Positions 6,025 to 37,297 of a stretch of DNA of 64,000 nt are shown one piece after another; positions within the stretch are counted from its first letter, which is position 1, and every line of letters begins with the position of its first letter. The translations under genes were made by a program, and so were the position numbers. Under the pieces are notes generated by a model that had not been told where the DNA came from, searched no databases, and saw only the letters and a list, made by a program, of their open reading frames with translations. The stretch comes from an uncultured virus (IMG/VR IMGVR_UViG_3300008108_000264) (lineage: Duplodnaviria > Heunggongvirae > Uroviricota > Caudoviricetes), in IMG/VR virus record IMGVR_UViG_3300008108_000264. One strand, 5' to 3'.

Positions 6025-6098
6025 GAGCGATGGAGAGATTCGAACTCTCCATACTCCCTATGAGTATCGCTATAGAAGATTACAGAGCTCCATAGCTC
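6025..6098 (-). ncRNA. tRNA-like T-loop element at the 3' end of the aaRS-like gene
   Basis: TGGAGAG-TTCGAAT-CTCTCCA T-arm, TACTC-ATAGG-GAGTA hairpin, closing stem AGCGA/TCGCT. Confidence 0.5.
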
Positions 6099-6915
6099 TA
6101 ATTAATCTTGTAATTCCAACTCCAGCACCAACTCTTGGAAAGAATTTGTTGCTAAGAAATTCATTTAATTCATTTATTACTCTTTCATATCCAAATAAGT
6201 CAAATAGCTTTTCAGCATATTTACCATCTTCAATATTAAAGAATGTATCTCTCATTTGTTCAACATTACAAGAACGTTCAGCTGAACCAATAGTTTCTTG
6301 ACCACAAAGAATAACATCTATTTTTTTAGAGTTACCGTTATTGTATCTTTTCATATTCCAGAATGGATTAGTTCTTTCTGGGAAGTTCATTATAAATAAA
6401 GCATTTGAAATAGTTTCACCTAGCTCGTTTTCTAATTCAGAATTAATAATATCTACATCATAAGTTTGACATATATCTTCATAATTCATCATTTTATAAT
6501 CATCAAATCCTAAGAAATCAAGTAATTCAGTTTCAACTAAATGAAGATCTGTCATATCACCTGGAAACTCAAATTCAAACATTGGAAAGATCATACAATG
6601 ACGACCTTCTATTGGATTCTTTTCTGCTCTGTATGAGGTACTGAGACAATAAAAACCTGGTACTTCAGGATTGTTTAATAATTCGTGTTCAAGCCACATT
6701 TGACCAGTTTGAGGTAATGGCCATACCTTACCCGCATAATCGTATGTACGAACATTAAACGGGTCTTCACAAGCTGCAAGAATAGATAATCTATTCTGAG
6801 TGTGTACTTCTAAAAATCCTTTTTCATCAAAGAATTGTCTTAATTTTTTTACAACTTTTGTAAATTTATCAGCATCAATATGCGGATAAAAAGAAGAGTG
6901 TAATGAGTGCTTCAT
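6070..6915 (-). CDS. Class IIb aminoacyl-tRNA synthetase-like protein (Asn/Asp-RS catalytic domain only)
   Basis: LPQTGQMWLE, motif 2 SYRAEK..GRH..FPMFEFE, ETIGSAER, motif 3 GAGVGITRL; no N-terminal anticodon-binding OB domain. Confidence 0.8.
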   Translation of the reverse strand: MKHSLHSSFYPHIDADKFTKVVKKLRQFFDEKGFLEVHTQNRLSILAACEDPFNVRTYDYAGKVWPLPQTGQMWLEHELLNNPEVPGFYCLSTSYRAEKNPIEGRHCMIFPMFEFEFPGDMTDLHLVETELLDFLGFDDYKMMNYEDICQTYDVDIINSELENELGETISNALFIMNFPERTNPFWNMKRYNNGNSKKIDVILCGQETIGSAERSCNVEQMRDTFFNIEDGKYAEKLFDLFGYERVINELNEFLSNKFFPRVGAGVGITRLIRAMELCNLL

Positions 6916-18845: not shown

Positions 18846-20681
18846 TTAATTAGTAGCTTTTCTGATCAGTTCATAACGATTAGATTTGTGTAATCCCCAT
18901 AAAGATTGATAGACATCAGCTATTTCAATATCTTTAAAGTTAGTTAAAAGTTGTTCAATTTGTGAAGGATTTGGTTGTACCATAAGTACATTTTCTATAC
19001 CTTCAAAGTTTCTTATATCCGATGCTGTATTATAAGCAACGTCAATTAAAATAACAAATGGTCTAAAACCAAAATACTTCTCACACTTGCTCATAAAATC
19101 AAGCATAGATGTTGTAGAATTGTATCTGTTATTAAAATTACCATCACTAATAAATGTCCATGCTGGAAATGCCATTAATAATTCAAGATTTTTAGCTCTA
19201 TCTCCAGAGTTAACCCACTCATTTAAAGAATCAGGAACAGAAGAAATATTAGTACCATTACCAGTTTGTTTTGCTCTCATAAATTGTTGAATTCTCTCAA
19301 GATTCTCAAGAAAATGTTTTTCAGGATCAAACAATGGTTCATTTATTCTTTCTTTATTCATAGCAGAAAATCTATTTAAAGCTACACCTCTTTCATCAAC
19401 ATAAGTAAAGAATCTAGCTTTTTCGCTAAACATACCCATTAATTGACGACCTTCATCTGTAGGATTCTTCATCAAACAAATAGTTGCCATAAATGCAGCA
19501 AATTCAAATGGAGTAAATCCATTTATACCACCGTAACTACTTTGCATAGATCCTGAATCATCAACAATAACAAGATTGTTAAATGGTAAATTTACTTTAT
19601 CAAGAAACGGTTGAAGTTTAACTTTATCAACAGTACCGTTAAGAATACTAGTAAACATATCCTTAAAGTTTACAGCTCCAGTAGTAACTTTAGCTTCTTT
19701 CTTAACTTTTTCAAGTTTAATCATATCATCTTCAGTCGCAAGATTTTGACGTACCTTTTCTTCTAACACTCTTTGTTCTTGTTGAGCAACGTCTTTAGAC
19801 TTTTCCCATTCAAGAAACCATTGTGAAAAATTCTTTGGCCATTTATCTTTAGGTTTATCACTACCATCTAATAAACGTCTTCTTACTCGAAAACGTGCAT
19901 CTGAAGGTAATTTGTTAAGCCAATTAATAAACTGCTCACGATCAAAATCTAGAATACGTTTTGTAGAAAATACAACAGATTCTAAATCCTCATTGTATTT
20001 CTTTCTCCATTGGTAAAATCCTGTGTATTCAGTCCATTTACCATGATCAACATATTCCCATTCTACAAGATTAGAAACCATTCTAATAAAATCAGCTTTC
20101 TTTCTGTGATTAGTTTTTGTTAAATCTTGTAACTTATTTTTACGTTTACTTGTCCTAGGACGAGTAAGAAACTTAGCTACAAGGTGTTTATCAAAATCAT
20201 CACCACTTCTAATAATCTTAGCAATGTATTCAGCAACTTGCTGTTCAACACCTTCAGTCATATCAATGACTTCTGTAATCTTTTTCTTACCTTTCTGAGT
20301 TTTTACACGCATACCAATTAAGTTATCAAAATTAGTATACTCGTTAAAAAGATTAGAAAATAAGAATTTAATATACTGTTGTGGTGCATTCTTTTTCATC
20401 CATTTAAGGACAATAATAAAATTCTGACGTGCAGCTGTACCACCAGTATCAACTTTGTTATTTTTAAAAATCTTGTGTTCACGTGCAGTAATGTCACCAA
20501 TTGAAAATAACAAAGAATAAAACATTTCTCTTTTTTCCTTAGTATCCGCTTCTTTAAATGCAGATTGAATCATTTGTTCACTTATATACTTATCAGAGTT
20601 TTGATAAAGTTGTAAACAATGTTGCATTCCATTAAATGGATTCTCCTGTTTGTTTTTTAGTGTAACTTTCTCTACTTGCAT
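18846..20681 (-). CDS. Ro60/TROVE-like (DUF2828-like) helical protein with C-terminal vWA domain
   Basis: N-terminal LLFSIGDI...GGTAARQNF, vWA MIDAS VIVDDSGSM, GNGTN, FISDGNFN; 611 aa. Confidence 0.7.
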   Translation of the reverse strand: MQVEKVTLKNKQENPFNGMQHCLQLYQNSDKYISEQMIQSAFKEADTKEKREMFYSLLFSIGDITAREHKIFKNNKVDTGGTAARQNFIIVLKWMKKNAPQQYIKFLFSNLFNEYTNFDNLIGMRVKTQKGKKKITEVIDMTEGVEQQVAEYIAKIIRSGDDFDKHLVAKFLTRPRTSKRKNKLQDLTKTNHRKKADFIRMVSNLVEWEYVDHGKWTEYTGFYQWRKKYNEDLESVVFSTKRILDFDREQFINWLNKLPSDARFRVRRRLLDGSDKPKDKWPKNFSQWFLEWEKSKDVAQQEQRVLEEKVRQNLATEDDMIKLEKVKKEAKVTTGAVNFKDMFTSILNGTVDKVKLQPFLDKVNLPFNNLVIVDDSGSMQSSYGGINGFTPFEFAAFMATICLMKNPTDEGRQLMGMFSEKARFFTYVDERGVALNRFSAMNKERINEPLFDPEKHFLENLERIQQFMRAKQTGNGTNISSVPDSLNEWVNSGDRAKNLELLMAFPAWTFISDGNFNNRYNSTTSMLDFMSKCEKYFGFRPFVILIDVAYNTASDIRNFEGIENVLMVQPNPSQIEQLLTNFKDIEIADVYQSLWGLHKSNRYELIRKATN

Positions 20682-20709
20682 AGTGTTAGGTTTTAAAAAT
20701 GAAAAAAAT

Positions 20710-20757
20710 AAAATACTATTACTAACGTTAACTTTATGAAGTTATTGTAAGTATCTT
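20710..20757 (-). ncRNA. Minimal Y-like stem element in the leader of the Ro/vWA gene
   Basis: AAGATACT-TACAATAACTTCATAAA...AGTATTTT. Confidence 0.6.
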
Positions 20758-20761
20758 TTTT

Positions 20762-21097
20762 TTAATTTCTGTAGAACATTAAGTCCTCATACTTATCCCA
20801 AAATTTTGGATCTCTAAGATTTAAACAAGACATTAATTGTGTAGAATGATAATGTTCATCTATTTCGTCATCATTTAAAGTTAGATGTAAATCGGTTTTA
20901 GCCATCTTATAACATTCATCGAAAAATTTAACCTTTTCATCGATAGTGTAATCCTCTAATGGAACAGATAGATTTTCAATATCTCGATTACGATGTACAA
21001 TTTTTCTTAAGCTATTCATAGCTATTGTGTAATTTGCGCTATTTGTAACGTTATCTGGTTGACATTCTAGCTCTTTAATAATTTCTTGAAGATTCAT
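20762..21097 (-). CDS. Hypothetical protein
   Basis: 111-aa ORF between Y-like RNAs. Confidence 0.6.
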   Translation of the reverse strand: MNLQEIIKELECQPDNVTNSANYTIAMNSLRKIVHRNRDIENLSVPLEDYTIDEKVKFFDECYKMAKTDLHLTLNDDEIDEHYHSTQLMSCLNLRDPKFWDKYEDLMFYRN

Positions 21098-21119
21098 AAT
21101 TTTTTTAATTTTAAAATTT

Positions 21120-21228
21120 AAGTTAGTGTTTTTTGCCTATTGATCTTACCAACTGATCTAATTAGATTAATCTAATGAAGGACTTGAACCTCCGACCTAC
21201 AGGGTATGTTTAATTTTGTAACTAACTT
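21120..21228 (-). ncRNA. YrlA-like Y RNA (circularly permuted tRNA module on a terminal stem)
   Basis: AAGTTAGT-TACAAAA..CCTGT-AGGTC-[GGAGG TTCAAGT CCTTC]-[ATTAGA TTAA TCTAAT]-TA-[GATC AGTTGGTAA GATC]-A-ATAGG..ACTAACTT. Confidence 0.85.
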
Positions 21229-21232
21229 GTTG

Positions 21233-21300
21233 TGAAAATGATTGGAATCGAACCAACGTCATACTTTAGAAGTACTACTCTACCACTGAGCTACATTTCC
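21233..21300 (-). tRNA. Atypical tRNA with CTA (amber) anticodon and shortened anticodon stem
   Basis: GGAAATG/CATTTTC, D-arm GCTC AGTGGTA GAGT, GTAC-TTCTAAA-GTAT, T-arm GTTGG TTCGATT CCAAT. Confidence 0.6.
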
Positions 21301-21302
21301 AT

Positions 21303-21398
21303 AAATCACTTATATAATATGCTTAACCGTTTAGCTAAAAACCCAATGGGTTTTATAGGATTCGAACCTATATGAGTATTATGTTTTGTAAGTGACTT
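21303..21398 (-). ncRNA. YrlA-like Y RNA (second permuted tRNA module)
   Basis: AAGTCACTTACAAAAC-ATAATA-CTCAT-[ATAGG TTCGAAT CCTAT]-[AAAACCC ATT GGGTTTT]-TA-[GCT AAACGGTTA AGC]-A-TATTAT-ATAAGTGATTT. Confidence 0.85.
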
Positions 21399-21405
21399 TG
21401 TTTAT

Positions 21406-21942
21406 TTATTTAATTTTTAAAGTTTTCCATATCTGAGAACAATAACCTATTTGATAATGACAATCAATTATAGCATTATGTGTGTTTTCAGGTACAGGAT
21501 ACTCTTTCTTTATAGTACGATTAAAACTAACTAAAGTTCTAACACATCTTTCATTATAGTATTTCCAGGGTATAGGTTTTTTCAATTTATTATAGGCATC
21601 ATTTAATAAGCCTAAATCAAATCTTGCACTATTACCCCAAACTTCATAATTAGCATCATTAAAGAATTTAGAAAAGTCTTCTAAAGCTTTCTCAATTGGA
21701 ACAGCTTCCTTTGTAAACTCTTTTCTTGCTTCATCAGATTGTTGCATCCACCATAATACAGTAGAAGCATCCACTGCAAGACCTATGTCTAAACAACTTT
21801 GTAAATCTATTATTGTGTAAAATTCATCGCCTGTCTTACCAGTACTAATATCAAATTTTACAGCACCAATACTAATAATTGCTGAATTTGAAGTATTTCC
21901 CATACTTTCAATATCAACCATAATGTGTTTTAACTTAGCCAT
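21406..21942 (-). CDS. DEDDh 3'-5' exonuclease (exonuclease VIII N-terminal / RNase AS-like)
   Basis: MVDIES, WWMQQS, WGNSARFD, RCVRT, HNAIIDC. Confidence 0.8.
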   Translation of the reverse strand: MAKLKHIMVDIESMGNTSNSAIISIGAVKFDISTGKTGDEFYTIIDLQSCLDIGLAVDASTVLWWMQQSDEARKEFTKEAVPIEKALEDFSKFFNDANYEVWGNSARFDLGLLNDAYNKLKKPIPWKYYNERCVRTLVSFNRTIKKEYPVPENTHNAIIDCHYQIGYCSQIWKTLKIK

Positions 21943-21957
21943 TTTATTTTAATTTAA

Positions 21958-22491
21958 TTACCAATTTAAAGGGTTAATATCATAACGCCATAGTTTATAT
22001 TTTTCAATAATACTAATTAACTTTTGTGCATAATTAGGATCAGTTGCATAGCCCGCAGATTTTAACCCATAAGCCCAAGATTCATAATTAAATTTTGATA
22101 AACTTCTAAGATGATTATATCTAGGTTTAGTCAATAAATTAGAATGATCTTGCCATGATTGATCTACATCAGAATAGAATTTAAATCTATCATTTGGTTT
22201 ATCATCAGCATAAACTACGTATTTACCTTCACCTTTCCATTTAATACCAAAGTGATTATTAGCATTTTTAGCCAAATAAGATTTACCAAATTGACTCTCT
22301 AACATTCCTTGTGATAGCTTAATAGCTATTGGTATGTTGTACTTTTTTGATTCTCTAATTGCAACATTAAGATGATCATCAATGTATTTCTGAACATCAT
22401 TAGGAAGTTCTACTTCTAACGATGAGAGATAAGTTGAAAATCCAGCTGTACAAAAGAATAATAACGAACATAGTAATAATATCCTTTTCAT
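21958..22491 (-). CDS. GH73 glucosaminidase/muramidase (FlgJ-like) with signal peptide
   Basis: QGMLESQFG, NNHFGIK, AGYATDPNYAQKL. Confidence 0.88.
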   Translation of the reverse strand: MKRILLLCSLLFFCTAGFSTYLSSLEVELPNDVQKYIDDHLNVAIRESKKYNIPIAIKLSQGMLESQFGKSYLAKNANNHFGIKWKGEGKYVVYADDKPNDRFKFYSDVDQSWQDHSNLLTKPRYNHLRSLSKFNYESWAYGLKSAGYATDPNYAQKLISIIEKYKLWRYDINPLNW

Positions 22492-22509
22492 GATTTTTAG
22501 AATTAAGGT

Positions 22510-23109
22510 TTAAAAATTAAATTTATCATATAACACTTGTATAAACTCAATAGGTAAATGAATATTCTTTATACCTACTGCTTTCTTAAAAAACGGAGCA
22601 ATGTTTACAGGATAATAACCAGCTAAACCACAACCTATTTGAGTTACTAAAAACTCCTTATCAGGGTTTTCTTTAGCAAAATCAATAAAGTCATTTACAT
22701 AAGATTCTATCTCATGTAAAGGTAAATTCTTAGTTATTAACTTATTCATTGTAGGTATAGCATAAGTTTGACCTTGTAAACCAACAGATTTACCATACTT
22801 AGCACCCCAATTCATTGCTGTTTTAGCAGCACCTAATCCATGTCTACCTGCAATATTAGAACCAAATACAAATACTTCATTATCATTTAAAGAAGTAACA
22901 TTATTAGGAGTTACTTTTATATTTTCATATAAATAGATAAGTTCCTTATATTCTTCAATTTCAGTTTCAAGTACAGTTAATTGATATTCTAATAATTCAT
23001 TAAGAATTTTATCAGGATTGCGACGATAATACTCTAAATTATGTTCAGCATTTTCTAAACGTTTAAGAGTTATCTTATACTGTAGTTCATTCTCCAATAC
23101 TTCCATCAT
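22510..23109 (-). CDS. Macrodomain-like protein
   Basis: VFVFGSNIAGRHGLGAA, YAIPT, VTQIGCGLAG. Confidence 0.7.
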   Translation of the reverse strand: MMEVLENELQYKITLKRLENAEHNLEYYRRNPDKILNELLEYQLTVLETEIEEYKELIYLYENIKVTPNNVTSLNDNEVFVFGSNIAGRHGLGAAKTAMNWGAKYGKSVGLQGQTYAIPTMNKLITKNLPLHEIESYVNDFIDFAKENPDKEFLVTQIGCGLAGYYPVNIAPFFKKAVGIKNIHLPIEFIQVLYDKFNF

Positions 23110-26100
23110 TGTTTAACATAGAATTAATAGTATTCTCCATTTCTGAAGTATTAATTAAATTATAAGGTTCCATGTAAACTCTAGCTAAACCAAATTTAAG
23201 TTTAATTTGACTATAAGTAAAGTTTGGTACGGTTTCTTTAAGCTTAGTAAATTCTTTATCAAGATAATTAATAACGTTTAAATCATGAATTGCAAGACCA
23301 TAATGACCTTTTTCTAAATGATCTTTCCATTTATTTTGAAATGTTTGTGAATCTAATAATTCTTGAGGAAATCTATCACCTTCCCAAAGGACAGGTTTTT
23401 CTAAACACTCAGTTATTTTTTCACAGAGCCATTCTAATCCATCTAAAGATTCTGCACTTATTGTAACAGGTTTTTCTATATAACCATCAGGTAATCCTTC
23501 TGAATTATAATAAACCTCACGAACTGAATAATAAAGTTCATTATCATGTTCGGTAACTAAAACTCTAAAATTAAAAGTCATTTTGAAATAGTTGGAATTG
23601 TTTGATCTGTTTTATGTTTATCATTACTTGTTGACATAACAGCTCCATTGCAGTTACAAAAGAATCTACGTTGTCCGTATGCCCAAAAAGTATAAACTTT
23701 ACAACCTTCTGCTTCAAATAATAATTTTACATCAAAATTTGAATTAGTACTTTTTATATGACCAATTGAAGGATCATCACAACTAATAAATAATATTAAT
23801 ACTAGTAAAAATGTAAAAATTTTCATATTCTTCCTTTTGATATATCGTTTAACAATAATTTACCTAAAATAAAACCAACAGTTGTTACTATAGCATTTTC
23901 AGTTCCAAATAGAACACAAGCTACCATAATAATTAACAAACCTAATAAAATAGCAAGAGCGTATATTAAAATATCATTCATAGTTTTTATTTTTTAAGAT
24001 TTAAAATATAATTCCCCTGGTTTCAAATAATCATTTGAATAATTATTTTCTACGATAGTAACCATATTACCATTTTTTAACCCATCGATATAATATTTTG
24101 CATATTGATCGTCAGATTTTTCTAATTCTTCTAATACTTTTGTATTATCTACTCTTGTACAACCATAAATTGGTGTATGAGTAAATGCAATTCTGATATT
24201 AGAATCAGATAATAAATTGCGATAGTAGCCTTTTGGTGCCATAAAATTAAGATTTTCTGTTAAATGAAATGTTTTCTAATACTTTTACATCTTTAGGTTG
24301 CCACTCCCATATTTCACCGTTATCTTGAATAACAGTAAATAGTTTGGAAGTTTCAGTACCATATTCAGTAACTAACCACATAAAACCTTTACCTTTTGGT
24401 GTAGTTACTTCTACTCTATTTTGTAATTCTAATATTATCATATTAATCTACTACTCCATTACCATAGTAAAGTTCAAATGATTTCTTTTTATAATCATCT
24501 GACTTAAGCCAATCACTATATTTATTTTCCCAATCTTTATCTTGAAATTTATAGTACGAACCATTACAGTAACGTAAACTATTATTTAATTTATAAAACT
24601 GTTCAAATAAATCTATTTCATTATCAGCTTCTATTTCTTTCTGTTTTTTAATCTCTGAGTTAACACTAGTATAACTTACTCTATCATAATAATCAAGTAT
24701 TGCTTTCATCTAATACTTTTTTTACAAGTGGAAAAATTTCTCTTGTCTCTTCTTCTGCCCATGTTATCATCTCTTCTTCTTTGTTTATATCCCAATCATA
24801 AAGCTCAAATGCTCTATGCATCATTTCATGATTTAATAATAACATAGTTTCAAAATCTGATGTACATCTACTTAGATTTATAAATACAAAGAAATCATCT
24901 CCTGTTTTATAATCTTCATCTTCTTTAGGTACATAATTAGACCAACCTGCTATGTAAGCACTTTTTGTTGTGTTCTTATGTTTTATACAATCTTTATGTT
25001 TTAATCCGTGCATTTCTTCAACACCATAATGCCAAAATATACTACATGGATTTTTACTTAACAACAATGTGTAAGTTTTTCTCTTTATTTTCTTAATATT
25101 CATTATTTAAGATATAAAATCTTATAAATTTAACTGTCTTTAAACTTTTTATCATAGTATTGTTTACCTAATTCAGGAAGAAATTCAGTTCCAAAATGAT
25201 CAGGCATCCACATTGCAGCATCTATTATTTGCTGTTTTTCCATTTCTTTAGCATCGTAACACAAATCATAAACCCAAGTAGGTATTTCACCCATATCTTT
25301 ATTATCAATTTGCTGTATCAACCATTCTACTGCTGTCATAAGTTTGCGATTTCTGTTCGAACTTGTTGCCAATATTCTTTTTCGTTTTCATCAAATAAAT
25401 GAGCACTAAGGATTTCTTCTACTGTAATCAAAGCGCATTGCTTGGCATTTTCTTTTTCAATATCTAGTCTATATCTATGTGTTTCAGGATCCGTACCATC
25501 TGTAAATTTTCTAAATATATTAACTAACTCTATTGCCTTTTCTTTCGGTGTCATTGTTTAATATCTTTACATTTTTTACGTATAAATATTTTTAGTGTCT
25601 TACCGTCATCTTGTAATTGTAATTCAACTTGATTTGTTGAATCCCAATTTACATAACTTCTTCCATTTTCATCAATAACTTCTACTCTATTTACAAATAA
25701 AGTATTAGTAATTTGAAATCTTTTTCTGATTTTATTAATAAGTTTAGTAATTTTTTTCATAATTTTTACTTTTTATTTGTTATTTAACCACATTAGTTTT
25801 TTTATTAAAAACTTTATTTCATTCTTTTTATATCTTAATTTTTTCAATCTTCTTAAAAGTATTAGTTCTTGTATTTCTTTTTTACTTTTATAAGATTTTG
25901 GTTTAGGTTTATAATTAGTAATAAAATAAATTAAACAAAATAAACTAATAGGAAAACTAAATAAAATCAATAATACTATAAATGGACCAAGAACACCAAT
26001 TATTAAGTTCATTAGAATCTATATAATTTCATTACCTCATCATCACAAGGTAAAAGTTTTTTAATGTCTGGTATAGAATATACTTTATCACCATAGTCTA

Positions 26101-26293
26101 GGACATATTCTTCACCTTTTTCCTCCCAGTGAATATAAATTGCCCAATCACCATAGTAACTTTTCTTAGCTATCCAGATGAGATTATCACCTTTGCGAGT
26201 TCTACTAGCAGTAATACCTTCGTGAGAATTAGGAACGATACCTTTAGCTATAATAGAATCATTAGGTATTTGATTGTATTCGTTTAAAGTCAT
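23087..26293 (-). CDS. Run of about 11 small hypothetical ORFs
   Basis: Closely spaced minus-strand ORFs; 23578-23826 is lipoprotein-like (LFISC); 24693-25103 has a HExxH motif (HEMMH). Confidence 0.55.
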
Positions 26294-27114
26294 TTTATTC
26301 TATTTTTATCGCCATTAGATGTTAAGTAAACATTTAAATCTTTTATTGACAAAGAAGCATCAATATTTTTTTTATCATCATCAGAAAATCCAAATTTAGG
26401 TGCTAATCTATATTGATAGTTACCTCTTTTTATCATTTCTTTGTTTAATCGTTTAATTATTCCTTTTATTTTCTTTTGAAATAACTTTATTTGTTCTTTC
26501 TTTATTACTTCTGGTTCTTGACCATTTTCATTAAGATAACCAACAGGATAAAATAAACAATTATCTAAGTATTTATTAATTTCTTCTTCATCATTAGTAT
26601 AGATTTCATGTGCTTTATCTTTTCTTTTCTTTAAAGATTCTATTAGTGTATCTTTTGATATACCTTTATAGTTATTATCAATAAATAATCTAACAGTTTC
26701 TCTAAATACTTTAGGATTATGACCACGTGCAGTTATAATACCAAAATAAGCACCACTGTTAAGAGCTTCAACAAAATCATTCCATGATGGAGCTAATTTA
26801 GAATTCTGTACAGCTACTAAAAATGGTATAATACCACATCTAAAATCTCTAAATGGTTCAAATGTTGATAATCCAACACCTACATGACCATTGTAATCAA
26901 TAGATCCTTTTTTAAGCTTTTCTTTTATTTCAGCATACTCTGCTGTAGATATAGGAATCTCTTTACCAGTAACATCCATTAAATATATTTGACAAGGCAT
27001 ATAAAGTAAATTATCATCCCAATCAAATAAATAGTATTTAAGATATACTACTGGTCGATCAAATAAAAAATAAGAAAATATTGTTATAATTATTAGTGTA
27101 ATTGCTATTTCCAT
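26290..27114 (-). CDS. HAD-superfamily phosphatase-like protein
   Basis: FDWDDN (DxD), ITARG, K, GFSDDD. Confidence 0.7.
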   Translation of the reverse strand: MEIAITLIIITIFSYFLFDRPVVYLKYYLFDWDDNLLYMPCQIYLMDVTGKEIPISTAEYAEIKEKLKKGSIDYNGHVGVGLSTFEPFRDFRCGIIPFLVAVQNSKLAPSWNDFVEALNSGAYFGIITARGHNPKVFRETVRLFIDNNYKGISKDTLIESLKKRKDKAHEIYTNDEEEINKYLDNCLFYPVGYLNENGQEPEVIKKEQIKLFQKKIKGIIKRLNKEMIKRGNYQYRLAPKFGFSDDDKKNIDASLSIKDLNVYLTSNGDKNRIK

Positions 27115-27392
27115 TCTTTTAGTATTTTATAATAAACAAATTCAGAATCGTTCTGTTCCCAAGCATTAAACCCTATATTATAAGGTTCTGTTATTCTTAT
27201 ATGACCAAGAAAACCTTTTGCAGGTTTATTTTCTTCAGTATATTTATCAGGTAATGATGGATACCACAAACCTTTATAGGTATGTTCACCATCTACATCA
27301 TTACTAATAAATTCAATTGGATATACATTATCAACAGGTAATGGATTTAAATGTCTATTTAAATATCCTTCTCTTTTTTCTAAATTCTTCAT
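27105..27392 (-). CDS. Hypothetical protein
   Basis: ORF; likely start MKNLEK. Confidence 0.55.
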   Translation of the reverse strand: MKNLEKREGYLNRHLNPLPVDNVYPIEFISNDVDGEHTYKGLWYPSLPDKYTEENKPAKGFLGHIRITEPYNIGFNAWEQNDSEFVYYKILKEWK

Positions 27393-27502
27393 AACTAAAT
27401 AATTAAATTGGATAAAAAAACTGGTAGGCAAGGTAAAAAAAGTAGCGACATAATAAATACATCGCTACTACTAAACCAAAATCTATGAAAACATTAAAAC
27501 GT

Positions 27503-27562
27503 AAGTTAGTTCCTTTTTATTCACTTTCAATAATAATAAATTTGATAAATTGTAACTAACTT
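27503..27562 (-). ncRNA. Minimal Y-like stem element
   Basis: AAGTTAGTTACAAT...AACTAACTT; same stem as 21120-21228 without the tRNA module. Confidence 0.65.
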
Positions 27563-27566
27563 GTTG

Positions 27567-27639
27567 AGGGGAATCTCGGAATCGAACCGAAATAAAAGAA
27601 TTATAAGTAACTAAATAAGTTACTACCTGACATTCCCCT
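27567..27639 (-). ncRNA. tRNA-ended element with an internal Y-like hairpin
   Basis: Acceptor GGGGAAT/ATTCCCC, T-arm TTCGG TTCGATT CCGAG, internal AGTAACT-TATTT-AGTTACT-TATAAT, no D-arm. Confidence 0.65.
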
Positions 27640-27644
27640 TGTAT

Positions 27645-27693
27645 AAATCACTATAATATTAAGCAGATATTGTTAAATCTTTGTAAGTGACTT
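27645..27693 (-). ncRNA. Minimal Y-like stem element
   Basis: AAGTCACTTACAAAG...AGTGATTT; same stem as 21303-21398. Confidence 0.65.
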
Positions 27694-27701
27694 TTTTAAC
27701 T

Positions 27702-27881
27702 TTAAGTTGTCCAACCTTTCATTGGACTTCTAAATTTCTGTTGTTCTTCACCAGTTAATTTATAACGATAAAGATACTTTTTACCTTGAATTCTTTCAAG
27801 TTTTGACTTTTGTTTCTTTGCAAACTTCCTTGTTCCTTGTCCGTTACCAGGAAGATTGTCAATTTTTTCGTAACTGTTCAT
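27702..27881 (-). CDS. 59-aa basic protein inside the RNA array (not in the ORF track)
   Basis: MNSYEKIDNLPGNGQGTRKFAKKQKSKLERIQGKKYLYRYKLTGEEQQKFRSPMKGWTT*. Confidence 0.6.
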   Translation of the reverse strand: MNSYEKIDNLPGNGQGTRKFAKKQKSKLERIQGKKYLYRYKLTGEEQQKFRSPMKGWTT

Positions 27882-27901
27882 AACAAGATAATTTAAAATT
27901 T

Positions 27902-27994
27902 AAGACAGTTAATGTGGGAATTGAACCCACTACCGTTTGATTAAAATTCAAATGCTCTACCAAATGAGCTAAATTAAATTTTTGTAACTGTCTT
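27902..27994 (-). ncRNA. tRNA-Lys(TTT)-like body with its acceptor end fused to a Y-like stem
   Basis: AAGACAGTTACAAAAATTTAATT-TA-[GCTC ATTTGGTA GAGC]-A-[TTTGA ATTTTAA TCAAA]-CGGTA-[GTGGG TTCAATT CCCAC]-ATTAACTGTCTT. Confidence 0.75.
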
Positions 27995-28000
27995 GTTTGT

Positions 28001-28115
28001 GGCGAGGGAAGGAATCGAACCTCCGTTAAAAATAATCCTCAATTTATTTGAATTTATGAAGTTATTGTAACTAGCTTTAAGAAGAACTAGTTTAAGCCAA
28101 CATTTCAACCTCGCC
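28001..28115 (-). ncRNA. tRNA-ended element with an internal Y-like hairpin
   Basis: Acceptor GGCGAGG/CCTCGCC, T-arm GGAGG TTCGATT CCTTC, internal AACTAGTT-loop-AGCTAGTT-ACAATAACTTCATAAA. Confidence 0.72.
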
Positions 28116-28122
28116 TTAAAAG

Positions 28123-28184
28123 AAGACACTTAATTTATTTATGAACATTGATATAATTAATTTATAAATGTTTGTAAGTGTCTT
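28123..28184 (-). ncRNA. Minimal Y-like stem element
   Basis: AAGACACTTACAAAC...TAAGTGTCTT. Confidence 0.65.
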
Positions 28185-28191
28185 AAATTCT

Positions 28192-30410
28192 TTATTTCTT
28201 CCAGGTGCTTTTTATTTCATACTGGACCATATAATCTATTTTCTTTTGTTCATCATACATTATTCTAAGATTATTACTAACCTTATCAATAACAATGACA
28301 TATTCTGTACCGTGCATATCTACTGCTTCAAATCTCCAACCAGTATCTTTATCATCTAATGGTTCAAACTTATTAATGAAGTAATTAAACTCAGCATCTG
28401 CACTTTTTTGATTTAAAGTAGTAAAATCTTTATTAAATTCAAATAGAAAAGGTTCATCAAACTCTTTTATAAGTTTATACTTTTCCTCTTCAAAATCATA
28501 ATAAGTATAATATGATTTATCTGAACTAAAAAAGAACTGTGCATTAACATTAAGTGCACAAATCATAAGTAAAAATAACACTTTTTTCATAACATTACTG
28601 TTTAAAAGGTCAACAATTATATAATTAATCTTCATACTCAGAATAAGAATCAAGCTGTTTTTTAAGAGCAGTAATTCTTTCTTCTGGAGTCATTTTTTCC
28701 TGTTCAAGTCTATCAATCTCAGCAGATAAAGCTTTCTTAGCTTCAATAGCTTCTGCTTTTTGAGCTTGATGAATCTTATAACCTATCAATAAAGATAAAA
28801 AGTCTTTATGATCTTGTAGATCTTTTAACTTTCTTTCTTGATACTCAGTCATAGTCCATTCATCAGAATCTTCTAATTTACGAACTTGATCTTTTAATTT
28901 AGCATGCATATCTTTTAACGTATTAATAGTTAAATCATGCATCATTTGTTGTACACTGTATTTACCAAGTGTACCTGTGAAATATGTATTAGAAAACAAA
29001 AGTTTTGCTGATACTTTTTCTAGTTGGTCTTTATGTTCTTTTGTAAACATTTTCTTCTCATTCATAATTTGAATCTTTTTTGAGTAAATAAAAATCTATT
29101 TCTTCTTCTTCATTCAGATAATTTTCAGTATCAATATCACCACAATTATATGTAGGGTATTGTATATCTCTATCATTATCATGAATTGCTTCAAGTTGAG
29201 ATGAATCTCTTGCAAATTTATCAGAAGCATTTATTCTAAAATAACATTCTTCTGATTCACACCAATACGTTTTATATCTGTAACCTAATTTCTTCATACA
29301 ATGTAATTAAAAAGGGTATAGTGTTACCTATACCCTACAAAACAAACTATTTACACACAAAATTTTTACTTTGATTTAAATACTACTTTATCGTAATTAT
29401 TTCTCATTTCAACAGCAATAACTTTATCTTCCTTTATATGGAATACAATGTTACTATTATTTTTAGCTGTAAATAAATAAGAATCACATACATCGCAATA
29501 CTTGTTTCTTAGTTTAAACTCAAATAGTCCATACCATTCAAATTTATCATTCCCTTTATCAAAGTGACCTAATAGTGTGTCACCACGTAATTCATAATTT
29601 ATGGTGTAACCGTTTACAGCAGTATCTAATACTTCCATAACGTCACCATTTTCATTTAATTGATGCATTACTGCACAATCTACTACAATAGGTTTAGGTT
29701 TAAACCCAAATAAATTACTTTTAGTAGTACAAGATACAATAAATGTAAAACAAGCTACTGATAAGTAAAATGCTGTAATTGTAAAAACTTTTCTCATTTT
29801 TGTTTTTTTAATTGAGACCAATAAATTCTTTTGTATTCATTCAACTTTTGAAGTTGAGCATCATTTAATTCTATTGTTGAAATAGAACTAGCAGCCATAT
29901 ACCATTCAGGTATTGTAACTGAAATATTAAAAGAGTTAAATTCTTCTTTAAACAGTTCAGCATCTTGTTGGGACAAGCAGATCATATAATCATCTACTTT
30001 GGATCCCCATCCTCTTTCAGATTCAATAATTTCTACTTTAAACGCATTCATAATATTCATTTTTTTAGATGAAATAAAAAGTTAATTAATTCGTTTACAA
30101 TTTTTTGAAATTTTTCTTCTTGTGTTTTTAAATCAAAATAATCAGTAAGAACTATACCATAAAAATAATATACACCATTGTATCCAAAATCTCTTGGTAC
30201 AAATGTCATCATATAAATATATTTTTTATGACTATTATCAAACTCCATTTTAAAACTATTTAAATAGTCAAATGTTAATTTTTCACAAAGATTATACTTT
30301 AAAATAGTATCATCAATTGATTGAATAATAAGTTTAACAACATCTATATTCTCTGGTACTTTTGATTTTAATAACTCAAGTAAATTTTGATACTCTGTTT
30401 GTGTTAACAT
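28192..30410 (-). CDS. Run of hypothetical ORFs (28192-28590 secreted, 28625-29065, 29058-29297, 29366-29797 lipoprotein-like, 29794-30060, 30057-30410)
   Basis: Closely spaced ORFs; signal peptides MKKVLFLLMICALNVNA and FIVSC. Confidence 0.55.
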
Positions 30411-30425
30411 AATTAAAATAATTAG

Positions 30426-30498
30426 TACACTCAACAGGTCTCGAACCTGTAACCTACAACTTAGAAGGTTGTTGCTCTTCCAATTGAGCTATGAGTGT
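30426..30498 (-). tRNA. tRNA-Arg(TCT)
   Basis: Full cloverleaf, ACAAC-CTTCTAA-GTTGT; CCA not encoded. Confidence 0.92.
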
Positions 30499-30503
30499 TT
30501 TAG

Positions 30504-30626
30504 TAGTCAGGACAGGATTCGAACCTGTATGGTGCTACCGTAGAGAGTTTGGTCTTACTTGCGTGCCTTACCATAAGTGGAGTGCTACTCCATACTCTAT
30601 GCGTCTACCAATTCCGCCACCTGACT
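30504..30626 (-). tRNA. Leu-like pseudo-tRNA with about 40 extra nt in the anticodon arm
   Basis: AGTCAGG/CCTGACT acceptor, TGGCGGAATTGGTAGACGC D-arm, ACAGG TTCGAAT CCTGT T-arm. Confidence 0.7.
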
Positions 30627-30631
30627 AAAAA

Positions 30632-30731
30632 TGCGTTTTTAAATTATCCCTTGAACGCTAACAATGCCGACATACGATTCGGAAGGTCAAATACCTTATC
30701 TTCGGTCCGTGCAGATGCACCTACAGAGGGC
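30632..30731 (-). ncRNA. Unassigned structured RNA candidate
   Basis: CCCT/AGGG, GTGCA/TGCAC, CCGA/TCGG, AAGGT/ACCTT helices plus a GCGTT/AACGC pseudoknot. Confidence 0.45.
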
Positions 30732-30898
30732 TTTTTTTCCAATTAAATCCAATTTCAAAAAATGGTGTAATGTGTAATGCATAAACATTTGTTTTGTTAT
30801 CAACATTACTTTTACTTACTCCAATAAAGAATGGAATTATCCAAAAAAATTTAGTTTCAATCTTACCTTTGTATGTTTTCATATTTTTATATTTTTAG

Positions 30899-30982
30899 TA
30901 CCTAGAGCGGGACTCGAACCCGCACGGACATTCTGTCCACAAAATTTTAAGTCTTGCGTGGCTACCATTACACCACCTAGGC
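30899..30982 (-). tRNA. tRNA-Leu(TAA)
   Basis: GCCTAGG/TCTAGGT, CAAGA-CTTAAAA-TTTTG, long variable arm GGAC AGAAT GTCC, T-arm GCGGG TTCGAGT CCCGC. Confidence 0.9.
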
Positions 30983-30986
30983 ATAA

Positions 30987-31109
30987 AGAGAGAAGTTTGG
31001 GTTTCTCAAGGTTTCTGGTTAAGTGCAATGAGTGACGCCTGTCTACTACAAACCTTTTTTCGACAATTAATACACTCTACTTCTTAACTACAGCTAACGA
31101 CTTCTCTCT
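30987..31109 (-). ncRNA. Unassigned pseudoknotted RNA candidate
   Basis: AGAGAGAAGT/ACTTCTCTCT, GTTAAG/CTTAAC, GAGTG/CACTC, TGTC/GACA; loop AAGGTTT pairs with downstream AAACCTT. Confidence 0.55.
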
Positions 31110-31415
31110 AAATCTTTTGCAAAAACAGAAGGTAAATTATTTTTTTAAATAGTTTTACCAATAACTGACGAATGAGACCTGCACGCAATTTATTAGCATA
31201 CATGGACTTTTTCCATGCTTAAAACAATAAGTTTCATAATTTATCCTTCTGCCAACTTGCAAGTTTATCTTAAACGAAGAGATTTCAGTATCCAACGCCA
31301 AAAGTTAAATTTTACTTTCTCTTCAAGGTTTTCTTTTTCATCGTACAACCAAAATTTCATATAGTTGGTTTTTTAAAAACAGTCCGACTTTTACATCGGA
31401 CTGTCAGCGTTAAGT

Positions 31416-32009
31416 TCAGTTGTTCATATCGCCCATCCATGCAAATATGATTTCTTCAATCGCATCAGAAGTATAACGATTACTAACTAAATTGTAATCG
31501 TATATATCTAACGCATAGTATATATAATACGGTAAATCCTTTATATTCATATTGGATTTATGGGATTTAATCCCTACTCTCTCTTCATATTTATAAAAGA
31601 AAGTGTTTAGAAGAAATTCCGCATCATGAGCAGATATCATTGATCTGCTATCATACTCATGTGTTTTAAAGTTATCTATTTCTTTCAATGCAAATTGAAA
31701 TTCGAATGGAAACATTCGATCAATCTGCACTTGTGATCGCATTGTTACAAATGCGTCGTAAAATTCGCGAGAATAATGTAGTTTCTTTTCCAATGCTTCT
31801 GCTTTATCTTTGCAGATAATCATAATACGGTACTTTTTCTCACCTTCATAGATGAATTCTTCTACCATAAGTTTATCTTTAGGAAAGATAGACTTAATCT
31901 TAAAGAGTTCTGGTGTTCCTGTAGACATTATTTGAATACAAGGAAAGTTGTTCTGTGAGAACGCTACTACAGAGAATAGCATAATGATTAAAGTTAATAC
32001 TTTTTTCAT
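31416..32009 (-). CDS. Secreted protein, possibly SPOR-like
   Basis: Signal peptide; KYRIMI..KDKAEALEKK...FYDAFV resembles a SPOR domain. Confidence 0.45.
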   Translation of the reverse strand: MKKVLTLIIMLFSVVAFSQNNFPCIQIMSTGTPELFKIKSIFPKDKLMVEEFIYEGEKKYRIMIICKDKAEALEKKLHYSREFYDAFVTMRSQVQIDRMFPFEFQFALKEIDNFKTHEYDSRSMISAHDAEFLLNTFFYKYEERVGIKSHKSNMNIKDLPYYIYYALDIYDYNLVSNRYTSDAIEEIIFAWMGDMNN

Positions 32010-36493: not shown

Positions 36494-37297
36494 AAACTAG
36501 TTAGTATTAAGAAGTTAGTTAATCAAATAGATATGTAAGGCCAATAATACGGTGATGTATAATTGGTAGTGAATGTGACAATGTGGAGAAATGATTGTGT
36601 GTGGGACTGGTAATATATAATATACACCAATCATTCGCATTTAATAACAATTAATCAACGAAAAACAGTTGAAATGTTATTATATTTAGTGCGCATTAAC
36701 GTTTAGTGAAACGATTTAACGTTTATTTAGGTCACTAAAGAAAATACTATGCCGCTAAATACTTGGAACGCTTGTTGTCCCCCTGCGGGCGATTATCGCT
36801 GTGCTCGCAATCGGTTGCTATGCAACGGAATTATTAGCTTGTTAAGCGTAATTCGTTCAACGCTGTAAAGTTCCCAAAAAAAAATGACACTTTTCCTGTA
36901 TGTCAACAACTTCTGAATTCAACAATAGAATTATATAGAAGCTGATATCATACCTATAGTGTTAATTTGTAATTCGAAAATGATTCGGATTAAAAAAAAG
37001 TATAGGCAAGGTAATGAAGCGAAGCGCCACGTACCGATCTTGATCAGGTAAAAAAACCTGATACATCTCTCAAGTCAACCCAACAAATTGATGGGTGCAA
37101 CTCTCTAATAGTTGCTGTGAAGCAACATATCAACTCCATATCCACGTATGGGAAGAGAGATACTTTATCTTATTACTCCACTCTGCATTTACACGGGCTT
37201 GTGACCGTCCATTGGCTGCATTAGAGTATTTATATCAACAAAACAAAGAGGGCGCCCGACGGAGGAGGGTAAGGCGCCCTTTAAACATCTTAATATA

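What the first reader, a model, noticed from the sequence alone, without database searches (positions are those of the whole stretch)
28001..28115. Inside-out Y-like RNA: tRNA acceptor and T-arm ends with the stem closed as an internal hairpin
A perfect GGCGAGG/CCTCGCC acceptor and a T-arm enclose the family stem with its strands in swapped order: AACTAGTT, loop, AGCTAGTT-ACAAT. It shares TTACAATAACTTCATAAA exactly with the element at 20710. It is a circular permutation of the same design and could be matured by RNase P and CCA addition (inference).
Basis: partly seen in the sequence, partly recalled or inferred. Interest (0 to 1): 0.78.

Follow-up and report, generated by a model that had tools for sequence, protein, structure and literature searches.

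The report
Phage tRNA-like RNA carrying Y-RNA-type arm
A lake-water phage encodes a conserved 116-base RNA shaped like a tRNA whose D-loop carries an extra hairpin arm that recurs on many tRNAs and tRNA mimics clustered beside the phage's own Ro60-like RNA-binding protein gene, so it is probably a new layout of the known Y-RNA type of tRNA mimic.

Summary
On the minus strand, 28115..28000 is a 116-nt RNA gene with a perfect 7-bp acceptor stem, discriminator A and a canonical T-arm. Inside lie an 8-bp hairpin (AACUAGUU/AGCUAGUU) followed by ACAAUAAC, a weak D-stem and an anticodon-like arm with an 8-nt loop. It is not a tmRNA. It scores 27.0 bits on Rfam tRNA (threshold 29), and ARAGORN does not call it.

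The hairpin plus ACAA is a portable "arm" (helix AAGUNNC/GNNACUU, then ACAA) that is strand-specific and covaries. In this phage lineage it projects from tRNA bodies at the acceptor end, D-loop, variable region, anticodon stem or anticodon loop. The anticodon-loop form has YrlA topology.

The arm-bearing genes cluster on the same strand next to a conserved 611-aa protein. Its predicted fold is Ro60 (TROVE ring plus vWA/MIDAS), although no sequence profile recognises it. Three relatives' contigs keep the interior of the element unchanged while flanking DNA diverges by about 8%.

Best reading: a Y-RNA-like tRNA mimic in a new, "inside-out" layout. Ro60 binding, expression and end maturation are untested. 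It is a new variant of a known kind.

The parts
28000..28115 (-). whole 116-nt tRNA-like RNA gene (5' end at 28115, discriminator A at 28000)
   Evidence: Rfam tRNA 27.0 bits, model positions 1-71; fold; identical in contigs of relatives X3 and X12
28109..28115 (-). acceptor stem, 5' strand GGCGAGG
   Evidence: Pairs 7/7 with 28001-28007. Relative X19/X20 has G7>A and A5>G here.
28001..28007 (-). acceptor stem, 3' strand CCUCGCC
28093..28106 (-). D-stem 5' strand GAA(A) and the first part of the D-loop, UGUUGGCUUA, with G18G19
   Evidence: Rfam alignment; my parse
28085..28092 (-). arm, 5' strand AACUAGUU (family Y strand)
28077..28084 (-). arm loop CUUCUUAA
28069..28076 (-). arm, 3' strand AGCUAGUU (family X strand)
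28061..28068 (-). conserved single-stranded tail ACAAUAAC that follows the X strand
   Evidence: The tail is A-(C/U)-A-A in all 85 units by the search pattern. The next positions are 40 U / 40 A of 85, then 58 A of 85.
28053..28070 (-). 18 nt identical to 20733-20750, which lies in the unit just upstream of the Ro60-like gene
   Evidence: 26 nt identical in relative X12
28050..28053 (-). D-stem 3' strand (A)UUC
28031..28048 (-). anticodon-like arm: AAUAA / 8-nt loop AUUGAGGA / UUAUU. An alternative pairing exists with AAUAACUUCA in the tail.
28008..28024 (-). T-arm GGAGG-UUCGAUU-CCUUC
28123..28184 (-). upstream 'empty' family unit: AAGACACUUA-CAA...42 nt...UAAGUGUCUU
27902..27994 (-). downstream unit: tRNA-Lys(UUU) enclosed by AAGACAGUUA / UAACUGUCUU
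   Evidence: absent from relative X19/X20
27567..27638 (-). sibling 72-nt tRNA-like RNA: acceptor, arm AGUAACU/AGUUACU plus UAUAA, T-arm
21120..21228 (-). family unit holding a circularly permuted tRNA mimic (YrlA topology)
   Evidence: no Rfam YrlA hit
20710..20757 (-). short family unit directly upstream of the Ro60-like gene; holds the second copy of the 18-mer
18846..20681 (-). 611-aa Ro60-like protein (HEAT ring plus vWA with MIDAS motif DDSGSM)

Best explanation
The element is the gene of a stable, tRNA-shaped small RNA that probably does not decode.

Its ends form a normal tRNA acceptor stem with a T-arm. That is the part read by RNase P, 3' trimming enzymes and the CCA-adding enzyme, so it would be cut out of the tRNA-cluster transcript like a tRNA (inferred).

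Its D-loop carries a lineage-specific arm: a helix AAGUNNC/GNNACUU followed by single-stranded ACAA(A/U)A. The same arm is attached to many tRNAs and tRNA mimics that cluster beside the phage's divergent Ro60-like gene. In the permuted mimics next to that gene, the arm takes the place that the Ro60-binding stem has in YrlA.

I therefore read the arm as the docking site for the phage Ro60-like protein (inferred). The 28-kb element would then be a Y-RNA-like tRNA mimic with the connectivity turned around: acceptor end open, arm closed.

Shown: the structure, its conservation, the covariation of the arm, the Ro60 fold of the neighbouring protein, and the genomic linkage.

Inferred: expression, end maturation, Ro60-like binding, and what the complex does.
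For: Architecture.

Conservation:
- Contigs of relatives X3 and X12 have 0 differences in 28000-28115.
- In X20 (about 92% identical), 0 of the 83 assessable interior positions (28026-28108) differ, against 15 of 173 in the adjacent ORF (Fisher p 0.003).
- The two listed changes inside the element both lie in the acceptor 5' strand.

Arm family:
- 62 of 113 sense-strand motifs have a 7/7 partner, against 7 of 32 on the antisense strand.
- Permuting the three variable letters gives a mean of 27.7 and a maximum of 39 in 200 trials.
- There are 85 distinct units, with 5-6 pair types at the variable pairs and G-U pairs on the sense strand only.

Orthologues:
- D-loop arms occur in AT-rich GGCGAGG elements from metagenomes, with different, complementary stems.
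- L009 9627-9738 and L006 (about 9687-9800) lie 200-260 nt upstream of the Ro60-like gene.

Non-canonical anticodon-like loops: no anticodon loop is conserved among the five closest orthologues. The window has 8 nt, L076 has 8 nt in the fold, L032 has 7 nt with C at position 33, and L031 is ambiguous.

Ro60-like protein:
- AF2 model, pLDDT 79.9.
- The Foldseek top 10 are all Ro60, E 7.8e-6 to 7.7e-4.
- The MIDAS motif is invariant in 22 homologues.

Linkage:
- 17 of 17 GACAC-arm cassettes with a T-loop payload lie in the 16 records that hold the Ro60-like gene. All are on its strand, 73-6455 nt away, and 11 of 17 are within 1245 nt.
- 12 of 12 pattern matches without a T-loop payload lie in the 11 records that have no such gene.

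Precedent: Y RNAs are encoded beside Ro60, mimic tRNA, occur in phages, and M. smegmatis YrlA is cut by RNase P and receives CCA (PMC4201824, passages read). A Thermus phage Ro60 binds two upstream Y-like RNAs (PMC12135203, abstract and passages read).
Against: - No RNA data: no listed sequencing run is on record as RNA.
- Binding was not tested.
- The Ro60-like protein matches neither Pfam TROVE nor any PDB sequence. The arm lacks the GNCGAAN0-1G motif of bacterial Y RNAs, and the Rfam YrlA model gives no hit. The link therefore rests on fold, synteny and topology.
- All arm-bearing records are related phages, so arm and gene could co-occur by descent alone.
- This element is 7.3 kb from the gene, farther than most.
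- It keeps a complete cloverleaf. Without the extra A, the loop UUGAGGA would be a proper Leu(GAG) anticodon loop, so decoding is not excluded.
- The arm also flanks ordinary tRNAs (about 14 of 61). That fits a processing or stability role as well as it fits a Y-RNA role.
Confidence: 0.45

Rival explanations
1. A working decoding tRNA, for example tRNA-Leu(GAG) with an expanded 8-nt anticodon loop. Its D-loop simply tolerates a 39-nt extra arm, as class II tRNAs tolerate a long variable arm. The arm would serve some tRNA-specific purpose, such as a tag, protection or regulation.
For: - Full-length alignment to Rfam tRNA at 27.0 bits, with U8, G18G19, G15/C48, a canonical T-loop and discriminator A.
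- Arms sit at the D-loop regions flanking G18G19 and in the variable region, where tRNAs naturally vary in length (recalled knowledge).
- Relatives carry the arm in tRNAs with canonical 7-nt loops, for example L014 GUU, L065 CAU and the L070 group GUC/GUU, and L007 and L010 Leu(UAG) read by eye.
- Engineered hairpin-tagged tRNAs can be translationally active (PMC7590224, abstract only).
Against: - The 8-nt loop is fixed in all close relatives.
- The nearest orthologues have no conserved anticodon loop.
- In the 95%-identical L070 cluster, the loop positions are among the variable columns.
- The score is below Rfam's threshold, and ARAGORN does not call it with or without introns.
Confidence: 0.2
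2. The RNA is real, but the arm has nothing to do with Ro60. It would be a processing, stability or decoy element recognised by another factor: a host or phage endoribonuclease, a toxin-type RNase decoy, or a leader-trailer helix guiding tRNA end maturation. On this view the Ro60-like gene is merely a neighbour of the tRNA cluster.
For: - The arm encloses complete tRNAs as a leader-trailer helix, including 4 of 4 UCA suppressor tRNAs in L004, L005, L009 and L010.
- 3' strands are often followed by U-rich runs.
- 'Empty' units with AU-rich payloads of 32-48 nt exist.
- The arm has no Y-RNA signature.
Against: - Tight, same-strand adjacency of arm units to the Ro60-like gene in records of 32,514-176,795 bp.
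- In permuted mimics next to the gene, the arm takes the place of the Ro60-binding stem of YrlA.
- The one candidate nuclease next door, the Rv2179c-like exoribonuclease, is present in only 3 of 15 records and is not syntenic.
Confidence: 0.2
3. The arm is an intervening sequence that is cut out and the halves ligated, giving an ordinary-sized tRNA.
For: - Removing positions 24-62 would leave a normal D-arm, GAA-AUGUUGGCUUAA-UUC.
- In L009 9500-9617 the arm interrupts the 5' strand of an anticodon stem, and its removal restores a perfect CGUGC/GCACG stem (read by eye).
- Insertion sites vary, as with archaeal non-canonical introns (recalled; PMC3978253, search listing only).
Against: - There is no bulge-helix-bulge motif at the arm base (sequence).
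- The insert is too short for a group I intron.
- No splicing endonuclease or RNA ligase was found among the 58 window ORFs scanned.
- The anticodon loop would still be 8 nt.
- The arm sequence is itself conserved and occurs outside tRNAs.
Confidence: 0.08
4. A decayed tRNA gene that happens to host a DNA-level signal (promoter, terminator or recombination site) repeated through the tRNA cluster.
For: - The conserved UA(C/U)AAU resembles a -10 hexamer.
- The tRNA-Lys unit is replaced in a close relative, showing local indel turnover.
- The 18-26-nt identity with the site upstream of the Ro60-like gene could be gene conversion.
Against: - No sigma-70-type site was called at any family motif, and the region has fewer such sites than shuffles do (47 against 56.4).
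- Where the arm encloses tRNAs, the motif sits only 4-13 nt before the mature 5' end.
- Pairing partners covary, and G-U pairs occur on the sense strand only.
- The element is under purifying selection, with changes confined to the acceptor stem.
Confidence: 0.07

Closest known systems
YrlA-type bacterial and phage Y RNAs (Rfam RF02553; Chen et al. 2014, PMC4201824; phage phiLo Yrl1/2, PMC12135203)
   Same: - A small RNA combining a tRNA-like module (acceptor, T-arm, D-arm) with a protein-binding helix.
- Encoded in arrays on the same strand near a Ro60-type gene.
- Occurs in phages.
- One member (M. smegmatis) is cut by RNase P and receives CCA.
   Different: - In YrlA the RNA ends lie in the Ro-binding stem and the acceptor is closed. 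Here the ends are the acceptor stem, and the helix is a closed arm in the D-loop.
- The anticodon-like arm is retained.
- There is no GNCGAAN0-1G/CGAA motif.
- The Rfam model does not match.
- The partner protein is Ro60-like only by predicted fold.
Canonical tRNA (Rfam RF00005)
   Same: 7-bp acceptor, discriminator A, U8, G18G19, T-loop UUCGAUU, 5-bp anticodon-like stem; lies in a phage tRNA cluster.
   Different: 53-nt D-loop holding an 8-bp hairpin; 8-nt loop in place of 7; 27.0 bits against a threshold of 29; not called by ARAGORN.
tmRNA
   Same: tRNA acceptor and T-arm ends enclosing non-tRNA sequence.
   Different: Only 116 nt, with no tag reading frame or pseudoknots. There is no ARAGORN tmRNA call, and Rfam tmRNA_permuted scores 8.7 bits.
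Disrupted tRNA genes of archaea and Cyanidioschyzon (non-canonical BHB introns, permuted tRNAs; PMC3978253, search listing only)
   Same: Inserts at varied positions of the tRNA body; permuted relatives exist in the same genomes.
   Different: No bulge-helix-bulge motif; bacterial-virus context; the insert is a conserved module that also occurs outside tRNAs.
Phage T4 stable RNAs C and D (species 1 and 2) in its tRNA cluster (recalled, not checked here)
   Same: Small stable non-tRNA RNAs co-encoded with phage tRNAs and matured with them; function unknown.
   Different: No sequence or motif comparison was made here, and T4 has no Ro60 gene (recalled).

Membership tests
YrlA / bacterial Y RNA (RF02553) | Encoded near a Ro60 (TROVE) gene, same orientation | tested here: met
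   The element lies 7.3 kb upstream of ORF 18846-20681, on the same strand. That ORF's model matches Ro60 structures over its full length. Orthologues in L006 and L009 lie 200-260 nt upstream. The protein does not reach Pfam TROVE.
YrlA / bacterial Y RNA (RF02553) | tRNA-like module with T-arm, D-arm and acceptor-type stem | tested here: met
YrlA / bacterial Y RNA (RF02553) | 5' and 3' ends pair to form the Ro60-binding stem; acceptor-like stem closed by a loop | tested here: not met
   The ends are the acceptor stem, and the family helix is an internal hairpin. The neighbouring unit 21228-21120 does have the YrlA connectivity.
YrlA / bacterial Y RNA (RF02553) | Conserved GNCGAAN0-1G motif in the Ro60-binding stem (PMC4201824) | tested here: not met
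   There is no CGAA in the 116 nt, and no G.CGAA.?G on the minus strand of 20690-21420 or 27480-28200.
YrlA / bacterial Y RNA (RF02553) | Reaches the Rfam covariance-model threshold (69 bits) | tested here: not met
   No YrlA hit at E<=10 on 27985-28135. The only hit, at 21.5 bits, covers 27920-28054, which is tRNA-Lys plus part of the element.
YrlA / bacterial Y RNA (RF02553) | Bound by Ro60 in vivo or in vitro | not testable with these tools
   Needs RIP, EMSA or similar.
tRNA (RF00005) | Covariance-model score at or above 29 bits; called by tRNA finders | tested here: not met
   27.0 bits. ARAGORN gives no call, with or without the intron option.
tRNA (RF00005) | 7-bp acceptor stem, T-arm with UUCRANY loop, G18G19 | tested here: met
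tRNA (RF00005) | 7-nt anticodon loop with U33 and purine 37, conserved among orthologues | tested here: not met
   The loop is the 8-nt AUUGAGGA. The loops of the five closest orthologues differ in length and sequence.
tRNA (RF00005) | Aminoacylated and used in translation | not testable with these tools
   -
tmRNA | tRNA-like domain plus tag-peptide reading frame and pseudoknots | tested here: not met
   No ARAGORN tmRNA call in the window. Rfam tmRNA_permuted scores 8.7 bits against a threshold of 47. Length is 116 nt.
BHB-intron-containing or split tRNA | Bulge-helix-bulge motif at the exon-intron junctions | tested here: not met
   By reading the junctions GGCUUA|AACUAGUU and AGCUAGUU|ACAAUAAC, there is no 3-nt bulge / 4-bp helix / 3-nt bulge.
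BHB-intron-containing or split tRNA | Splicing endonuclease and ligase available | tested here: inconclusive
   None was found among the 58 window ORFs scanned with Pfam. The window is only part of the genome, and the host is unknown.

The most novel reading that the evidence does not exclude
The helix-plus-ACAA arm is a portable handle for a previously unrecognised, very large branch of phage Ro60-like proteins. These phages graft it at five different positions onto true tRNAs as well as tRNA mimics, including every UCA suppressor tRNA examined. If so, a viral Ro60 particle would hold, gate or mature the phage's own tRNA pool. It could time the release of suppressor tRNAs and so the switch of genetic code. 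The acceptor-open 28-kb form would be a chargeable or CCA-tagged member of that set.
Probability: 0.25. Interest if true: 0.8.

Novelty: new variant of a known kind. Interest (0 to 1): 0.6.

Why it matters
Y RNAs and Ro60 are conserved from bacteria to humans, yet what decides which RNAs Ro60 holds, and why bacterial Y RNAs mimic tRNA, remains open.

Here a phage lineage with at least 1088 homologues of a Ro60-fold protein that no profile recognises seems to use one small arm as a movable tag on tRNA bodies. The layouts run from ordinary flanked tRNAs through permuted mimics to this acceptor-open form.

That gives a natural series of constructs for testing three things: what a Ro60-type protein recognises, whether tRNA mimicry serves maturation or protection, and whether phage tRNAs, suppressors included, are handled by such a particle.

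It also shows that tRNA finders and Rfam miss these genes.

Tried and rejected
- RNA evidence: no RNA holder was listed for 21000-30900. The two 'RNA-Seq' runs that were laid are flagged as probably DNA, so they say nothing on expression, ends or splicing.
- Close phage records: megablast of 26000-32000 found nothing. The blastn hits were only to tRNA-Lys.
- The window's own assembly is not held. G001 is near-identical and adds no variation.
- A single-protein locus search returned only G001.
- A viral scan with the element's first 19 nt as a pattern gave 33 stretches, of which only the window's own phage was relevant.
- MAFFT/RNAalifold on four orthologues did not align the interior well enough to be useful.
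- Sigma-70 promoter/terminator scan: no site at any family motif.
- Rv2179c-like exoribonuclease as a conserved partner: present in 3 of 15 records and not syntenic, so rejected.
- Sequence-level Ro60 tests were all blank: Pfam, NCBIfam, the PDB sequence profile, and Pfam TROVE over four records.
- The PHROGs hit phrog_850 'RNA-binding protein' was weak, E 6e-6.
- TAG=Q reading of 33-40 kb opened no long frames.
- Literature: three searches found no description of natural phage tRNAs carrying such an arm. Supplements of PMC4201824 (its phage YrlA lists) were not opened.
- Earlier scan notes held nothing on this genome or sequence.

Full report
**What the window is.** The window is 27% G+C and densely coded. 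It carries a phage terminase, portal, major head protein and a GroEL. Genes and six ARAGORN/Rfam tRNAs in its left 39 kb all lie on the minus strand. Public runs that hold it are freshwater or lake metagenomes. An IMG/VR record, G001, is near-identical.

**The observation.** Read on the minus strand, 28115..28000 is GGCGAGG-UU-GAAA-UGUUGGCUUA-AACUAGUU-CUUCUUAA-AGCUAGUU-ACAAUAAC-UUCAUAA-AUUC-A-AAUAA-AUUGAGGA-UUAUU-UUUAAC-GGAGG-UUCGAUU-CCUUC-CCUCGCC-A. The acceptor stem is 7/7 Watson-Crick and the T-arm is canonical.
- The MFE structure is a four-way junction: -29.7 kcal/mol, z -2.8.
- Rfam's tRNA model aligns over all 71 positions at 27.0 bits, just under the 29-bit threshold. It places a 46-nt insert in the D-loop and one extra base in the anticodon loop.
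- ARAGORN calls neither a tRNA, an intron-containing tRNA, nor a tmRNA.
- The best Rfam tmRNA score is 8.7 bits.

**The hairpin is one copy of a family arm.** The motif AAGnnA(C/G)TTACAA recurs on the minus strand at 28185, 28078 (inside the element), 27995, 27694, 27563, 21399, 21229 and 20758. Each copy pairs with a partner strand. The general form is a helix AAGUNNC/GNNACUU with ACAA(A/U)A on the 3' side of the GNNACUU strand.

I counted units in the window plus eight related loci fetched through the neighbouring 611-aa protein:
- 62 of 113 sense-strand motifs have a perfect 7-bp partner, against 7 of 32 on the antisense strand.
- Block shuffles give 12.3.
- Permuting the three variable letters among motifs gives a mean of 27.7 and never more than 39 in 200 trials.
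- Eighty-five distinct units show 5-6 pair types at the variable pairs.
- The two next outer pairs, which my search did not require, are paired in 69 and 52 of 85 units.
- G-U pairs occur that would be C-A on the other strand.

The arm is therefore a real, strand-specific, base-paired element, which points to RNA.

**Where the arm sits.** In all contexts the connectivity is body-AAGUNNC...GNNACUU-ACAA-body. Five placements occur:
- Acceptor end: the arm encloses whole tRNAs as a leader-trailer helix. This holds for window tRNA-Lys and about 14 of 61 ARAGORN tRNAs by my reading, including 4 of 4 UCA suppressors.
- D-loop: this element, plus AT-rich GGCGAGG elements from metagenomes.
- Variable region: L007 9462-9575, L010 8868-8989 and 9240-9360 (read by eye).
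- Anticodon stem: L009 9500-9617 (read by eye).
- In place of the anticodon arm of circularly permuted tRNA mimics whose acceptor is closed. Examples are window 21228-21120 and L152, L154, L166 and L174. In those four, the closed acceptor loop even encodes NCCA (read by eye). This last layout is the YrlA topology.

In the 28-kb element the far end of the arm is closed and the acceptor is open.

**The neighbouring protein is Ro60-like.** ORF 18846-20681 (611 aa) has no Pfam, NCBIfam or PDB-sequence match and only a weak PHROG 'RNA-binding protein' hit. It has at least 1088 homologues with an invariant DDSGSM MIDAS motif.
- Its AlphaFold model has pLDDT 79.9.
- Foldseek's ten best PDB matches are all Ro60/TROVE structures. 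The first is the Thermus phage Ro60 (9kop, E 7.8e-6).

I take it as a divergent Ro60 homologue by fold. This does not show function.

**Linkage of arm and gene.**
- In six of the eight related loci (L004-L009) the script finds a short unit ending within about 100 nt of the gene's start, and most other units lie within 0.7-3.3 kb upstream. In the window the corresponding unit is 20757-20710.
- As a separate test, I searched IMG/VR for one arm variant (GACAC) around a 70-100-nt payload. This gave 30 stretches. I then searched 27 of their records for the protein (one record was not held).
- All 17 stretches whose payload has a T-loop lie in the 16 records that have the gene. They are on its strand, 73-6455 nt away, and 11 are within 1245 nt, in records of 32,514-176,795 bp.
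- All 12 stretches without a T-loop payload (coding-like or other repeats) lie in the 11 records without the gene.
- Two complete genomes without the gene (G012, G016) therefore do not carry genuine cassettes.
- The phages are related, so this is linkage and not independent co-evolution.

**Conservation of the element itself.**
- Contigs of three relatives were laid on 27400-28300. X3 (4 differences in 901 nt) and X12 (11 differences) have none in 28000-28115.
- X20 is about 92% identical. It has 15 differences in the 173 nt of the adjacent ORF and none in 28026-28108, the part of the element that the table can assess (Fisher p 0.003).
- Its two listed changes in the element are G7>A and A5>G in the acceptor 5' strand.
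- The matching contig piece of X19 (27996-28069) holds two further differences that the table does not list because they lie near a joint. They are consistent with, but not shown to be, the compensating changes at 28007 and 28005.
- The same relatives lack the tRNA-Lys unit (27874-27995 is replaced by 19 nt), so units turn over while this element is kept.

**Is it a decoding tRNA?** For:
- a complete cloverleaf;
- G15/C48;
- a loop that would read GAG if one A is ignored;
- arm positions that tRNAs tolerate;
- relatives with canonical anticodon loops.

Against:
- the loop has 8 nt;
- the five closest orthologues (window, L076, L031, L032, L006) share the four-way junction but no anticodon loop;
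- L006 even has a non-canonical T-loop;
- in the 95%-identical L070 cluster the loop positions vary.

I rate decoding at about 0.2.

**Is the arm an intron?** Removing it would leave a normal D-arm, and in L009 it would mend an anticodon stem. However, there is no BHB motif, no splicing gene was seen, and the arm is conserved and also used outside tRNAs. I rate this at about 0.08.

**Is it a DNA signal?** The UAYAAU resembles a -10 box. However, no sigma-70 site is called at any motif, the spacing to tRNA 5' ends is wrong, and the pairing is strand-specific. I rate this at about 0.07.

**Comparison with what is known.** Bacterial and phage Y RNAs lie beside Ro60 genes, mimic tRNA and carry a GNCGAAN0-1G motif. 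M. smegmatis YrlA is cut by RNase P and gets CCA (PMC4201824, passages read). A Thermus phage Ro60 binds two upstream Y-like RNAs found through the CGAA motif (PMC12135203, abstract and passages read). The present element works like these in design and neighbourhood, but it fails three membership features: its ends are not in the stem, it has no CGAA motif, and the Rfam model does not hit. I therefore do not file it as YrlA. I call it a new variant of the Y-RNA/tRNA-mimic kind.

Notes of this scan on other genomes describe giant-virus tRNAs with Y-like arms and phage YrlA-like mimics. I did not test them, and they are leads only.

**The 18-mer.** Exact 18-mers recur at a low rate by chance in this AT-rich DNA. 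Here, though, both copies start at the arm's UUACAA, and in X12 the identity is 26 nt. Possible explanations are a shared protein site (autoregulation of the Ro60-like mRNA leader), gene conversion between units, or pairing. In the MFE fold the tail AAUAACUUCA pairs with UGAGG-A-UUAUU of the element's own anticodon-like arm, and the same tail sequence sits in the leader of the Ro60-like gene. This remains unexplained.

**Verdict.** The feature is real, conserved and more than chance. The Y-RNA function is plausible but unproven. Interest is moderate to high (0.6).

Noticed in passing
window 37175-37227 (-): Rfam type-P1 twister ribozyme match, 60 bits (threshold 67.2), E 4.7e-12, among small early ORFs.
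   Followed up: no
window 6070-6915 (-): A 281-aa ORF that is only the catalytic core of a class II Asp/Asn/Lys-type aminoacyl-tRNA synthetase, with no anticodon-binding domain. It could charge tRNA-like RNAs without reading an anticodon, or be an AsnA/EpmA-like enzyme.
   Followed up: partly
window 30504-30626 (-): A 123-nt class II tRNA-like gene with a 49-nt G+C-rich insert in the anticodon loop and no family arm. Rfam tRNA scores 40.8 bits; ARAGORN with introns calls it Ala(GGC) with a 38-nt intron. The near-identical record G001 has an 85-nt, insert-free and different version.
   Followed up: partly
window 27567-27638 (-): A 72-nt sibling: acceptor GGGGAAU/AUUCCCC, T-arm, and a family arm (AGUAACU/AGUUACU plus UAUAA) in place of both the D and anticodon arms. 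In relatives, changes fall in the linker 27593-27597.
   Followed up: partly
window 21120-21228 (-): A family unit whose payload is a circularly permuted tRNA: anticodon-stem 3' half, variable loop AGGUC, T-arm, closed acceptor AUUAGAU/AUCUAAU, D-arm GAUC-AGUUGGUAA-GAUC, anticodon-stem 5' half. This is YrlA topology, but there is no Rfam YrlA hit.
   Followed up: partly
window 21303-21398 (-) and 21232-21300 (-): A family unit enclosing a lone T-arm-like hairpin and a G+C-rich hairpin with a U run, followed directly by an amber-suppressor tRNA (anticodon CUA). Reading TAG as Gln opened no long frames in 33-40 kb.
   Followed up: partly
window 27874-27995: The whole tRNA-Lys unit, with its flanking arm strands and the start of ORF 27702-27881, is replaced by 19 other letters in contigs of a 92%-identical relative. 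A second replacement covers 27639-27700.
   Followed up: no
L152, L154, L166, L174 (IMG/VR records G007, G009, G021, G026): Arm-flanked permuted tRNA mimics 73-505 nt downstream of the Ro60-like gene. Their closed acceptor loops encode a discriminator plus CCA followed by a U run, as if made to be opened there (read by eye).
   Followed up: partly
window 21406-21942 (-): An Rv2179c-like 3'-5' exoribonuclease gene next to the Y-like units. It is present in only 3 of 15 related records and is not syntenic.
   Followed up: yes
window 4810-5622 (-), 50192-51817 (+): The phage encodes both a DnaJ-like protein and a GroEL-type chaperonin.
   Followed up: no
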